Part shown: in pieces, positions 13,982 to 18,604 of the stretch
How the letters are laid out: every line of letters begins with the position of its first letter
Position numbering within the stretch: the first letter of the stretch is position 1
From: Auanema rhodensis
Lineage: Eukaryota > Animalia > Nematoda
Assembly: GCA_964057225.1 (NCBI GenBank)
Contig: OZ059896.1
Location: 7,750,001-7,814,000 of the forward strand
Length of the DNA stretch: 64,000 nt
Direction: 5' to 3'
The notes under the pieces: model-generated
The model's input: only the letters and a program-made list of their open reading frames with translations
Databases searched by the model: none
Told to the model about the DNA's origin: nothing
Position numbers and translations under genes: made by a program

Positions 13982-13998
13982 TTTTTCCTTAATATCTG

Positions 13999-14634
13999 AG
14001 AGGCCCCTGAAAACCCGTTGAAACTAAAAAAAAAATATTTTTTAATTTTTAAAAATGTTGCGAGTTCATATAGTTTATAATCAGTCAAAATATATGTTAA
14101 TAAAACTGATTTTAATAATTTTATTTCTAAATTTATAAGGAAAATAGTGTTTTTTGATTATTTTGAATAATTCAAATAAAATAATATTAAAATTTGAGAT
14201 TAGGAACATGTTAATTCATTAAAAATATTTTAAAATGATTCTAAGCTTCTAACAGGATTACTAAATAGGTTTTTTTCTGCAGCATAGCTTCAAACAAATA
14301 AGCTTCAGCATCTGAATCTTACTGAATATCTATGATGAGAACTTGGTTAACTTACAACCAAATTCTCCCGTTTAAAAGAAAAATAGACGTTTAGTTTACT
14401 CCTAACATTCTATCCAAAGATTATGTTCGAAGTTTTGATGAAACTTATGAAATTCATTAAAGAAGGCTTGAAGCAGAAGCAGAAAATTTCAAAGACTCCA
14501 GAAAATACTTTTGATTTTTGTGATGAAAACATGGTTTTTTGATTGTTTCAATTTTTTTCTGAATTCATTATCGTTTGTTAACACTTAACATATGTTTTTT
14601 CTGAGTTTTTCTAGTTTGTCTCAAAAGATATAAA
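13999..14634 (+). repeat. Left arm of a 636-bp inverted repeat
   Basis: agaggcccctgaaaacccgttgaaact...ctcaaaagatataaa is the reverse complement of 15630-16265, with only a few substitutions. Confidence 0.95.
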
Positions 14635-15629
14635 AATTTCTAGTGAGTGTGCAACCTTCTTCGGACTGTAGGTGTGACCATTTTCTCTTTTTGTGCTCCG
14701 AATAAAAATGTACGACAAGGAAGTCAATATCATGCTGTCTAAAAATGTTATAACCAAAAGCTCGATAAAATCTGCCTTCCTGCTTTCCGATAAGACAATT
14801 ATTTCTTTGTCGTATGAACTAACTGGCGTGAAGATCCATTGCGAATAAGTCACATGTGGATTATTTTTTATTTATTTCAATTAATTTAGAGTGAGTAAAG
14901 ATGAGATGGAGTTTTTATTATCGAAGGACTTTTCAAATATGCATTTAGTGTAGAATCTTCTGCTGACGTAAAAGATTTGATATTCATTGAACATATTCAA
15001 TTTTTGTTCTAGGATCTATATCTAGAAAGCGACAATGGATTGATACAGAGCTGCAATTGGTACCTATGAAACTGGTTTCTCGAATGATCCAATATGCCTG
15101 GTTTTATACAAAAGGAGACAATATGAAAAGATCGGCTATTCCGGTGGCAAAAAATTTGGCAATTAACTTCCGTCATGGTGTAAATAAGAAATTAGTAGAA
15201 GACGATTCCATTAAACTTTTGTCATATGAAAACCCGCAAGTGGTTGTTGATACTTGCGTAGTACTGATTGATGATGTCTGCGATTTTATTGTTCTTGAAT
15301 CTAAATCCTGAAATTGGGTGGGGATTTTTTGTGTCCTAGGAATCTCGGGTGTTATGACATGATGATAATGGTTTGATTATTGATCGTTTTATGCTTTGAG
15401 TGCTCTTCGAGAGTAAAGTAAGCTTGAAGTCTTCAATGTTATGGATTAACGTTGTATTTGTAGAATATCTCGCATCAAGTCAAGGAACATACGGGAGCTA
15501 TTTTTATTGAAAATTGTTAAGGCACTTTTCTCGACCATTCGGAGCATCTATGTATTTTGACTTTGTTTTAATGGGATATACAATGATATACAGTCATGTG
15601 CGAAAATCCTCGGACAACTCTTAGAAACC

Positions 15630-16265
15630 TTTATATCTTTTGAGACAAACTAGAAAAACTCAGAAAAAACATATGTTAAGTGTTAACAAACGATAATGAA
15701 TTCAGAAAAAAATTGAAACAATCAAAAAACCATGTTTTCATCACAAAAATCAAAAGTATTTTCTGGAGTCTTTGAAATTTTCTGCTTCTGCTTCAAGCCT
15801 TCTTTAATGAATTTCATAAGTTTCATCAAAACTTCGAACATAATCTTTGGATAGAATGTTAAGAGTAAACTAAACGTCTATTTTTCTTTTAAACGGGAGA
15901 ATTTGGTTGTAAGTTAACCAAGTTCTCATCATAGATATTCAGTAAGATTCAGATGCTGAAGCTTATTTGTTTGAAGCTATGCTGCAGAAAAAAACCTATT
16001 TAGTAATCCTGTTTGAAGCTTAGAATCATTTTAAAATATTTTTAATGAATTAACATGTTCCTAATCTCAAATTTTAATATTATTTTATTTGAATTATTCA
16101 AAATAATCAAAAAACACTATTTTCCTTATAAATTTAGAAATAAAATTATTAAAATCAGTTTTATTAACATATATTTTGACTGATTATAAACTATATGAAC
16201 TCGCAACATTTTTAAAAATTAAAAAATATTTTTTTTTTAGTTTCAACGGGTTTTCAGGGGCCTCT
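15630..16265 (-). repeat. Right arm of the 636-bp inverted repeat
   Basis: Ends ...gtttcaacgggttttcaggggcctct; reverse complement of 13999-14634. Confidence 0.95.
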
Positions 16266-16399
16266 AACATAGTTGTGTGCAACCTTCATCGTACAGGACT
16301 GTAAGCATAAAGAAAGTGCCAGGACGAAGGCATCACAAATCGAGAGAAGGAGAAAGAGAGAGTAGTTTTTTTACTTTTTTTGTGTAAAAAAAAGAAAAA

Positions 16400-16731
16400 T
16401 GAATTCATCCCAGTATTCTTTCACAATCTAAAAGGTTATGATTCACATTTCATTTTTGTAGATCTTCAAAGTACTAAATTTTTAAGAAAATACGAAATAG
16501 ATTTTAAGAACATTTCTTGTAACTCAGAAAAGTTTATGAGCTTTAGTTATTATTCACCTTTTTTGACGGAGAATGCTTGGGAAGGATGTGAAGTAAGATT
16601 TCTAGGTTCTATGAGTTTCATGTTATCTTCATTAGATAAACTTGCAGAAAATTTGAATGACAAACAAATGGATAAAAAGTATTACGATTGTCAAGATGTC
16701 ATTAAAATTATGAAGAAAAAATGTATTTATC
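16400..16731 (+). pseudogene. Fragment of protein-primed family B DNA polymerase (Maverick/Polinton/adintovirus type)
   Basis: Intronless FIPVFFHNLKGYDSHFIF (Exo II-type motif)...NSEKFMSFS...RFLGSMSFMLSSLDKLAENL...KKCIY, truncated at the KGxYPY motif. The usual RFLDS Asp appears as Gly. Confidence 0.88.
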
Positions 16732-17021
16732 TGAATCTTTCCAAGAAAAACAATGTTTATTCAAGCTTTTTCGTCTTTTTTTTAAACTCTTAATTGAAAT
16801 TTTCCCATGAAAATCAAAATAGAACAAGTTTTTTCTCAGGTATGATGATAATGCTTTAAAGTATGTGTTAACACAACTCTATATATATATATATATATAT
16901 ATAGATATAGATAGATATATGTCAAGCTGTACTTAGCTGTACTATATATTCTTGAAAAAAAAATCTAAAAAAGTTCAATTAGAAAACAACCTTTGGAAAG
17001 ATTCAAGGTTTGATCTATCTA
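16732..17021 (+). repeat. Direct repeat A' (copy of 13691-13981)
   Basis: Near-identical to 13691-13981; bridges the pPolB fragment and the promoter of collagen copy 1. Confidence 0.95.
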
Positions 17022-17098
17022 CACGACATTGACGGAAAGGACACGCTAAATGCAATGCCATAAGTTCGAAAGGCGGTCCGGTTGGATGGTACGACGAG

Positions 17099-17105
17099 TA
17101 TATAA
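17099..17105 (+). promoter_or_regulatory. TATA box of collagen copy 1
   Basis: GTATATAAG about 40 bp upstream of the ATG at 17143. Confidence 0.7.
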
Positions 17106-17142
17106 GGCAATCGGTTCGTTGGAATAGGCAGAAGCTCCAAAG

Positions 17143-18097
17143 ATGGATTTGGAACATCGTGTCAAGGCTTACCGCTTCGTCGCCTACTCGGCTGTTACCT
17201 TCTCGGTTGTCGCCGTCCTTTCAGTCTGCGTAACCCTCCCAATGGTTTACAACTATGTACACCACGTAAAGAGAAGTATGCACAACGAGATCAACTTCTG
17301 CAAGGTTTGAAGATTCTACCAATTCCACCGATTCTTATGTTATATCATTCTAGGGATCCGCTAAGGATATCTGGTCCGAGGTTAACCACCTTAAGAATCT
17401 CCCATCTGGAAACAGAACTGCCCGTCAAGCTGGATATGGATCTGAAGATGTTGCCGTCACCGGAGGATCCGCTTCAGGAGGATGTGATGCTTGCTGTCTT
17501 CCAGGACCAGCTGGACCAGCTGGAACCCCAGGAAAGCCAGGAAGACCAGGAAAGCCAGGAGCTCCAGGACTCCCAGGAAACCCAGGACGTCCACCACAGC
17601 AACCATGTGACCCAATCACCCCACCACCATGCAAGCCATGCCCAGCTGGACCACCAGGACCACCAGGAGCCCCAGGACAGCCAGGAGATGCTGGAATTCC
17701 AGGACAACCAGGACAACCAGGACAAGACGCCGCCCCAGGAGCCCCAGGACCAAAGGGAGCCCCAGGACCAGCCGGAAACCCAGGAGCCCCAGGAGCCCCA
17801 GGACAGCCAGGACAAGACGCTCCATCCGAGCCAATCCTCCCAGGAGAGCCAGGACCACAAGGAGCCCCAGGACCACAAGGACCACCAGGACAGCCAGGAC
17901 AACCAGGACAAGACGGAGCTCCAGGAGCCCCAGGACCAAAGGGACCAAACGGACAACCAGGACAACCAGGATCCGACGGAAACCCAGGAGCCCCAGGACC
18001 AGCTGGACCACCAGGAGGAGCCGGAGAGAAGGGTATCTGCCCCAAGTACTGCGCCATCGACGGAGGTGTCTTCTTCGAGGACGGAACACGCCGTTAA
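17143..18097 (+). CDS. Nematode cuticle collagen, copy 1 (exons 17143-17304, 17354-18097)
   Basis: [64 protein letters not shown]...RTAR (furin-type site)...[10 protein letters not shown], Gly-X-Y repeats, ...[24 protein letters not shown]. 49-bp intron. Confidence 0.97.
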
Positions 18098-18349
18098 GCA
18101 GCTTCTACAACGATCTACAAAAAGAATTCGGAGTCTTTACTCTAGTCAATTTTTTGAAAATAAAGACTTCTCACTCAATATTATCTTAAATCTTTGGTAA
18201 TCACACACACACACATTACAATAACATTCAAATGAATAGAATCATAAGAAAAAACATCGAATAGAAAGCAAATATATAAGTATAACTAGTATTTATTTCA
18301 AAAATACTTATTCAATTCATGAATAAGATAGATAACATTAACATTTCTC

Positions 18350-18532
18350 CCAATGAGTTCCTTGATCTTCTGAAGAATCTAAATTCACAATTCCTACTTC
18401 TCTTGGCTGTATTTGAGCAGGCAAAGTGTCTCTCAGAAAGACTCCACGGAAATTTTTAATTTCTAACACATTAACAAGCTCTTCGATTTCAGAGTTGGTT
18501 AATGGCTTCTGATCTTTCAAAAATTTCGTCAT
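18350..18532 (-). pseudogene. N-terminal fragment of adenain-like cysteine protease (Maverick/adintovirus PRO)
   Basis: PLTNSEIEELVNVLEIKNFRGVFLRDTLP...EVGIVNLDSSEDQGTHW. Truncated right after the catalytic-His motif GTHW, where the collagen 3' flank begins. Confidence 0.85.
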
Positions 18533-18544
18533 TTAGTAGTATAA

Positions 18545-18604
18545 TTTTATTGAAAATTGTTAAGGCACTTTTCTCGACCATTCCGACCATCTATGTATTT
18601 TGAC
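18545..18604 (+). repeat. 60-bp copy of 15502-15561 (internal segment of the TIR element)
   Basis: ttttattgaaaattgttaaggcacttttctcgaccattc.ga.catctatgtattttgac, 2 mismatches. Confidence 0.9.

What the first reader, a model, noticed from the sequence alone, without database searches (positions are those of the whole stretch)
13982..18604. Intact cuticle collagen gene sandwiched between Maverick/Polinton PolB and protease fragments: possible host-gene capture
Seen: the order is TIR-spacer-TIR, pPolB fragment (+), copy of the left flank (A'), complete collagen gene with TATA box and 3' flank, adenain fragment (-), then 60 bp of the TIR element's interior. Both viral-type ORFs break off exactly where host-derived DNA begins. 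Known: pPolB, an adenain-like protease and long TIRs are hallmarks of Mavericks/Polintons, and nematode Mavericks are reported to carry cargo genes. Inference: one complex insertion copied both local flanks into Maverick debris and produced a new, apparently functional collagen paralogue. This would be a route to collagen family expansion or an early cargo-capture intermediate.
Basis: partly seen in the sequence, partly recalled or inferred. Interest (0 to 1): 0.8.

Follow-up and report, generated by a model that had tools for sequence, protein, structure and literature searches.

The report
Collagen copy patched into Maverick debris
In a roundworm genome a recent, intact second copy of a cuticle collagen gene sits between broken pieces of a virus-like Maverick transposon, likely stitched in by DNA-break repair rather than captured as mobile cargo; the known Maverick-type cargo gene at this spot is a broken WASP protease lying between the inverted repeats.

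Summary
The described order is real. A 290-bp copy of the left flank and a 1,332-bp copy of the neighbouring collagen gene (99.5% identical, same 301-aa protein) lie between a Polinton polymerase piece (+) and a protease piece (-). Contigs of public runs bridge five internal junctions and put the collagen at about twice single-copy depth, so misassembly is unlikely and the collagen has not spread. In the closest related element, polymerase and protease lie tail to tail, so the host block stands where their 3' halves would meet. Three corrections: (1) the 'spacer' holds a broken WASP/wosp protease (61% to C. briggsae CBG26403), the known Maverick cargo family; (2) the repeat-arm family ends at about 16301-16303, so the collagen lies outside the inverted repeats; (3) repeated DNA goes on past 18604. 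No element end encloses the collagen, no Maverick end motif or target duplication is seen, and whether the arms are Maverick TIRs is unresolved. Best reading: a one-off template-switching repair patch, not mobile cargo. Expression of the new copy is untested; no empty allele was found. Interest modest.

The parts
13691..13981 (+). Host left flank A (source of A'); its first bases lie in the 3' end of a transcript from the upstream gene
   Evidence: RNA-type contig of run X11 runs into it from upstream (record 9)
13982..13998 (.). 17-bp filler of unknown origin at the left junction
   Evidence: no better match to the arm than shuffles (45 and 84 of 200)
13999..14642 (+). Repeat arm 1, lacking the family's outer end
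   Evidence: 4 mismatches in 644 bp to arm 2; high-copy family
14646..14670 (+). Short motif like the outer end of arm 2, just upstream of the WASP fragment
   Evidence: 0 of 200 shuffles reach the score
14693..15311 (+). Broken WASP/wosp-family protease gene (ubiquitin-like N-terminal part plus first half of the protease domain; in-frame stops; about 100 C-terminal residues not found)
   Evidence: residues 4-54 of CBG26403 51% (E 2.5e-12), residues 89-189 61% (E 2.5e-32); atlas lead TDP-43_N-like 0.90
15499..15621 (.). 63-bp piece plus 60-bp link to arm 2; present in a few other genomic copies
   Evidence: summed depth about 4-10 times single copy
15622..16303 (-). Repeat arm 2 with the family's outer end (near 16301, followed by TA)
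   Evidence: depth 4772 and 64724 in bin 16236-16303 against 119 and 689 in 16304-16371 (runs X8, X1)
16304..16388 (.). 85 bp of low-copy, unassigned DNA
   Evidence: no local match above shuffles
16389..16731 (+). Middle piece of a Polinton protein-primed DNA polymerase, likely pPolB2 class
16732..17021 (+). A', copy of the left flank
   Evidence: junction to the polymerase piece bridged by a contig of run X9
17019..18350 (+). Collagen copy: TATA 17099, ATG 17143, intron 17305-17353, stop 18097, AATAAA 18159; 301 aa, identical to the source gene
18351..18532 (-). 5' piece of the adenain-like Polinton protease, with its own start codon
   Evidence: junction to collagen bridged by a contig of run X9
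18542..18604 (.). 63-bp piece, an older paralogue of 15499-15561 (3 of 63 differ)
   Evidence: P 0.001 against the pooled recent rate
18605..18750 (.). Further multi-copy repeat DNA, not alignable to the arms; right edge approximate
   Evidence: variants at 18650 and 18683 in 8-16 contigs per run
18751..19544 (+). Single-copy host DNA B, likely the native upstream region of the collagen
   Evidence: contig 18675-19544 at single-copy depth in X3 and X8
19545..20878 (+). Source collagen gene (ATG 19669, stop 20623)

Best explanation
An intact copy of the neighbouring cuticle collagen gene and a copy of the left flank sit between pieces of Maverick genes, likely laid down in one recent template-switching repair of a chromosome break between host segments A and B. 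The repair synthesis would have hopped between Maverick-family DNA (arm, WASP cargo fragment, polymerase, protease) and host DNA within about 3 kb of the break, leaving a 4.7-kb patch that cannot move as a unit because no pair of element ends encloses the collagen. Shown: anatomy, homologies, near-identity of the copies, about two collagen copies, end of the arm family. Inferred: single event, repair pathway, direction of copying (col2 is the source because it has single-copy host DNA upstream and no element DNA on either side). Untested: expression of the new copy.
For: Both copied blocks come from the immediate flanks of the insertion. Arms 4/644, collagen 3/1322, A 0/290 substitutions fit one low rate, whereas the 63-bp pair does not. 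Overlaps of 3 bases (A'/collagen) and 2 bases (collagen/protease, from the loose end at 18349) and a 17-bp filler are what template switching leaves; inserts copied from DNA near a transposon break are described for polymerase-theta repair in C. elegans (PMC4490562, passages). Contigs bridge arm1/spacer, link/arm2, arm2 end/polymerase, polymerase/A' and collagen/protease. Collagen contigs at 142-152 against single-copy 74-79 in run X8. A second patchwork of local duplications with protease scraps lies 15 kb away.
Against: Overlaps of 2-3 bases are common by chance in AT-rich DNA. Kilobase-sized templated inserts are larger than typical polymerase-theta inserts (recalled). The polymerase-protease collinearity (1,619 bp of host DNA in place of about 1,970 bp) is also what an insertion into a once longer Maverick would give. 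Junctions A/arm1, A'/collagen and 18604/18605 were not among the listed bridging contigs; only branch points at 17021 and 17029 imply them. Run X1 does not show the doubling of A/A' (537-703 against 660-1088). No empty allele was seen, so the ancestral state is inferred.
Confidence: 0.6

Rival explanations
1. Arrested cargo capture: a pPolB2 Maverick inserted or replicating at this site took up the local collagen and flank in place of the 3' halves of its polymerase and protease genes, then lost most of its body and ends.
For: Polymerase and protease are adjacent tail to tail in L001, the contig with the closest polymerase; both frames break at the host block; a WASP cargo fragment and an arm lie next to them; the 63-bp piece lies on the 3' side of WASP and on the 5' side of the protease, as the inner edge of a TIR would.
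Against: Tail-to-tail adjacency in only 1 of 7 distinct contigs holding both genes. The arm end at 16301 points towards the polymerase piece, an order no intact element has; no integrase, ATPase or capsid match; published cargo lies between TIR and integrase, not within the polymerase (Widen); about two collagen copies only.
Confidence: 0.2
2. Several unrelated steps: an old Maverick remnant, a separate TA-targeting or MULE-like inverted-repeat element carrying the WASP fragment, and two independent local duplications happened to pile up in a repeat-rich region.
For: The arm end is followed by TA and lacks AGT or AG repeats (motifs from PMC8097293, vertebrate Mavericks); A ends in TA; arm ends are far deeper than the polymerase piece; a WASP gene also sits in a MULE with 870-bp TIRs (Widen); a similar patchwork lies at 33.5-35.3 kb.
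Against: All three duplicated pairs are of similar young age; all three recognisable non-host genes are Maverick-associated; the collagen duplicate has no shared flanking repeats for unequal crossing-over.
Confidence: 0.17
3. Assembly artefact or two haplotypes written in tandem.
For: Near-identical repeats; three junctions not directly listed as bridged; the best run may be the assembly's own source; no long reads seen.
Against: Five junctions bridged with no mismatches; contig ends in runs of three studies fall where the window's repeats predict; collagen depth about 2-fold in X8 and 1.6-3.4-fold in X1, X3, X9.
Confidence: 0.03

Closest known systems
Nematode Maverick cargo genes, WASP/wosp proteases and KRMA kinases (Widen et al., bioRxiv 10.1101/2022.07.12.499685)
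   Same: The spacer gene is a WASP-family fragment (best cluster holds CBG26403, named as a WASP in that paper) next to a long repeat arm and near Maverick core-gene pieces; 47 of 235 WASPs were reported near Maverick genes, mostly decayed.
   Different: The collagen is outside the arm pair, not between TIR and integrase, is not in many copies and shows no sign of transfer; the WASP gene here is broken and truncated.
pPolB2-class nematode Polintons (Jeong et al., PMC10748475)
   Same: Nearest polymerase homologues carry the HNH/endonuclease VII insertion (PF02945) described for pPolB2; protease piece of the adenain type.
   Different: Only 114 and 61 residues remain; 4.7 kb instead of 13-25 kb; no integrase, ATPase, capsid or fusogen; no target-site duplication.
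Templated insertions at transposon breaks by polymerase-theta end joining in C. elegans (PMC4490562); MMBIR/FoSTeS (recalled)
   Same: Inserts copied from DNA next to the break, short overlaps and filler at junctions, beside an element end.
   Different: Here the inserts are 0.3 and 1.3 kb, include a whole gene, and alternate with element DNA from elsewhere; pathway not tested.
msft-1/tlpr-1 MULE of C. briggsae (same Widen paper)
   Same: A WASP gene between long inverted repeats.
   Different: No transposase or antidote-like gene found; gene broken; element class of the arms unknown.

Membership tests
Maverick/Polinton (intact element) | protein-primed DNA polymerase B | tested here: met
   as a 114-residue fragment only
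Maverick/Polinton (intact element) | adenain-like protease | tested here: met
   as a 61-residue fragment; homologue P0011 hits Peptidase_C5 weakly (E 0.0056, below cut-off); homologous to protease of Polinton-like loci
Maverick/Polinton (intact element) | integrase, ATPase, capsid genes; 13-25 kb | tested here: not met
   patch is 4.7 kb and accounted for; tblastx of the window against L001 and L002 hit only polymerase and protease (L002 is distant)
Maverick/Polinton (intact element) | TIRs of 100-1500 bp with AG or AGT terminal repeats | tested here: inconclusive
   644-bp arms, high-copy family, end near 16301; no ACTACT or CTCTCT in 13.9-18.9 kb; motif known from vertebrate Mavericks, nematode ends not available; no match in 83 loci
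Maverick/Polinton (intact element) | 5-8 bp target-site duplication | tested here: not met
   left end missing; the six bases after 16300 do not recur at the left junction
pPolB2 class | HNH insertion and placement in the pPolB2 clade | tested here: inconclusive
   PF02945 in all 5 homologues scanned, 3 of 5 at or above cut-off; the fragment starts after that domain; no tree built
Maverick cargo (collagen) | lies inside the TIRs, between TIR and integrase | tested here: not met
   collagen is 700 bp outside the arm end; no second end to its right
Maverick cargo (collagen) | moved with the element (further copies, other species) | tested here: not met
   about two copies by contig depth; other species not testable
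WASP/wosp protease | homology to named WASP proteins over ubiquitin-like and protease parts | tested here: met
WASP/wosp protease | complete trypsin-like protease domain | tested here: not met
   no match beyond residue 189 of 289; in-frame stops
Nematode cuticle collagen | Col_cuticle_N plus Gly-X-Y repeats, intact frame and splice sites | tested here: met
   PF01484 E 1.3e-16, PF01391 E 2.1e-25; 301 aa, GT-AG intron
Functional paralogue | the new copy itself is transcribed | tested here: inconclusive
   RNA-type contigs show the spliced transcript over a part identical in both copies; the one exonic difference (17893) was not covered
Polymerase-theta or MMBIR templated insertion | genetic dependence on the repair pathway | not testable with these tools
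   only junction signatures seen

The most novel reading that the evidence does not exclude
A frozen first step of Maverick cargo uptake: a whole host gene with core promoter and intron was copied into the polymerase-protease junction of a WASP-carrying pPolB2 Maverick, showing that local template switching is how these elements load host genes, and at the same time giving the worm an expressed extra collagen.
Probability: 0.2. Interest if true: 0.6.

Novelty: new member of a known kind. Interest (0 to 1): 0.35.

Why it matters
As a repair patch it is a clear, datable example of a whole gene being duplicated by template switching at transposon debris, one route to cuticle collagen expansion, but a single immobile case. 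It adds a WASP cargo remnant and a likely pPolB2 Maverick family to this genome. If the polymerase and protease pieces prove to come from one natural element, it would show how Mavericks can take up intron-bearing host genes, a step for which I saw no mechanism in the parts of Widen et al. that I read.

Tried and rejected
No whole genome is held, so other copies could be seen only through run contigs. Pfam found nothing in the polymerase, protease or spacer pieces themselves; PDB sequence searches with P0011 and P0001 gave nothing meaningful. Locus searches that found nothing: P0011 in viral contigs, polymerase alignment in metagenomes (30), arm-end motif in viral contigs (70), WASP alignment in viral contigs (75); the 46-residue first WASP stretch found no homologue by word search (42). 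Of 83 fetched loci none matched arm, spacer or 18500-19544, and none held a WASP gene (76); the nine closest protease loci are Polinton-like viruses of another layout (80). No RNA holder listed; runs guessed to be RNA had no cover over 15420-16711, which is no evidence on expression. No empty allele: the long listed pieces of the DNA runs laid (5 of 20 listed runs; 2 RNA-type runs besides) match the window, also those labelled organisms B and C; X9 and X10 look like low-depth admixtures; lists were cut by the tool. Idea that the filler was copied from the arm: not above shuffles (52). Idea that 18605-18800 is a diverged arm: not above shuffles (133 and 90 of 200). GATA-site counts upstream of the two copies (6 and 1 in 600 bp) say nothing decisive. 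Earlier-findings look-ups were empty. Paper searches listed no report of a collagen in a Maverick; the library lacks most subscription journals.
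Full report
Observation. Host flank A (13691-13981) is followed by a 17-bp filler, arm 1 (13999-14642), a 979-bp spacer, arm 2 (15622-16265, 4 mismatches in 644 bp), 85 bp of unassigned DNA after the arm's end, a polymerase piece, A' (16732-17021), a collagen block (17019-18350), a protease piece on the minus strand (18532-18351), a 63-bp piece like 15499-15561, more repeat DNA, single-copy DNA B and the second collagen (19545-20878). 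The two collagens encode the same 301-residue protein with TATA box, one GT-AG intron and AATAAA; the one exonic difference is synonymous.

Viral-type pieces. The polymerase piece matches residues 431-549 of P0001 (59%) and C. briggsae CBG25579 (52%). All 5 homologues scanned carry an endonuclease VII/HNH domain, 3 above the Pfam cut-off, the mark of the pPolB2 class in Jeong et al. (bioRxiv text parts 1-2 of 7; PMC10748475 passages and supplement parts 1 and 261 of 266); I built no tree. The protease piece matches P0011 (75%) and P0012 (63%) and stops just after the conserved histidine motif. In IMG/VR contig L001, which has the closest polymerase among the loci fetched (51%), polymerase and protease end tail to tail with touching stop codons. 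That layout was seen in 1 of 7 distinct contigs holding both genes; the other six have polymerases at 33-39%. The 1,619-bp host block thus stands where about 1,970 bp of the two genes' 3' parts would be.

The spacer. A 100-residue frame at 15009-15308 found 15 relatives; the best cluster holds CBG26403, which Widen et al. name as a WASP protease (text parts 1-5 of 7 read, figures and bioRxiv supplements not seen; their alignments of complete Mavericks may bear on the arm question). CBG26403 also matches 14693-14845 (51%, E 2.5e-12), the ubiquitin-like part (atlas lead 0.90). The gene has in-frame stops and nothing matches its last 100 residues. WASP is the known cargo of nematode Mavericks, so the recognisable cargo at this locus is this fragment, inside the arms.

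Is it real, and how many copies? Twenty runs hold part of the stretch, nine of them at least half; I laid five DNA and two RNA-type runs, all kept as contigs. Mismatch-free contigs with 31 or more bases on both sides bridge arm1/spacer (X8, X9), link/arm2 (X8), arm end/polymerase (X1, X3, X8, X9), polymerase/A' (X9; X1, X3, X8 reach 30 bases) and collagen/protease (X9; X8 reaches 30). A/arm1, A'/collagen and 18604/18605 were not among the listed pieces, though contigs end at 17021 and begin at 17029 as two variants would require. In X8 unique contigs have depth 74-79, collagen 142-152, A/A' 138, exact arm contigs 148-160. Collagen ratios in X1, X3 and X9 are 1.6-3.4; X1 does not show the doubling of A/A'. 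Depth is a rough guide, but it excludes a spread of collagen-bearing elements. One of these runs may be the assembly's source, and all look like one genotype; no empty allele appeared.

Where the element ends. Summed depth falls from 4772 to 119 (X8) and from 64724 to 689 (X1) between bins 16236-16303 and 16304-16371: the arm family is high-copy and ends near 16301, followed by TA. Arm 1 lacks this end. The collagen therefore lies outside the arm pair, and to its right only the 63-bp piece and an unrelated-looking repeat follow. The end has no AG or AGT repeat (described for vertebrate Mavericks, PMC8097293 passages) and no 6-bp duplication; an end of this form with TA recalls Tc1/mariner (recalled). 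For a Maverick TIR speak the neighbouring WASP 3' side and the 63-bp piece shared with the protease 5' side, itself in several copies and contiguous with the arm. I put Maverick origin of the arms at about 60% (judgement).

Mechanism. Substitutions in arms (4/644), collagen (3/1322 beyond the first 10 bp) and A (0/290) fit one rate of 0.3%, while the 63-bp pair (3/63) is older (counts entered). Both host blocks come from within 3 kb of the junctions, with overlaps of 3 and 2 bases and a filler. This is the pattern of template-switching repair; inserts copied from beside a transposon break are documented in C. elegans (PMC4490562 passages), although usually much shorter (recalled). The source gene is most likely the right-hand one, as it has single-copy host DNA upstream. 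The patch has no enclosing ends and so is predicted to be immobile. A second patchwork at 33578-35295, with a tandem and an inverted duplication and two scraps of a different protease copy (63% nucleotide identity), suggests such debris-associated rearrangement is not rare in this region.

Function of the copy. RNA-type contigs show the spliced collagen transcript with no mismatches over a part shared by both copies (X11 record 11), so the copies were not told apart. The new copy keeps 124 bp upstream of its start codon; farther upstream it has A'. 'Functional' remains untested.

Verdict. Observation confirmed and extended; complex duplication in Maverick debris supported; capture of collagen as mobile cargo not supported. 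Searches listed no paper on a collagen in a Maverick, but the event is of a known kind. Interest 0.35; the capture-intermediate reading has about 20% probability and would merit 0.6.

Noticed in passing
window 33578-35295: Second patchwork: 521-bp tandem duplication, a 379-bp inverted copy at 94.7%, and two 5' scraps of a different Polinton protease (33852-33763, 34357-34268); the inverted copy's limits fall close to the protease scraps' edges, so here too a protease 5' end abuts a repeated arm.
   Followed up: partly
window 14646-14670: A 25-bp motif like the arm family's outer end, also followed by TA, sits at the inner end of arm 1 about 20 bp before the WASP homology; it could mean the arm is a 700-bp element with short imperfect ends of its own.
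   Followed up: partly
window 14960-15274: Run X9 holds a 1,972-base contig about 85% like this part of the WASP fragment at higher depth than the window's genotype, and X3 shows extra depth here while X8 does not: related WASP genes exist in these samples.
   Followed up: no
window 12379-13293: Spliced host gene on the + strand just left of A, whose transcript appears to run into A (X11 record 9); not identified.
   Followed up: no
window 16355-16366: An AG/AGT run reading rightwards lies between the arm end and the polymerase piece; it resembles a Maverick left end but is low-copy, so probably chance.
   Followed up: partly
window 18589-18639: A contig in X3, X8 and X9 joins the 63-bp piece to the 18639+ repeat with other letters between, so these two are linked in at least one more genomic copy.
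   Followed up: no
L002:239-14399: IMG/VR contig of a Polinton-like virus with protease, capsid-like, ATPase-like, polymerase and integrase-like ORFs (labels from recall); distant from the window's element.
   Followed up: no
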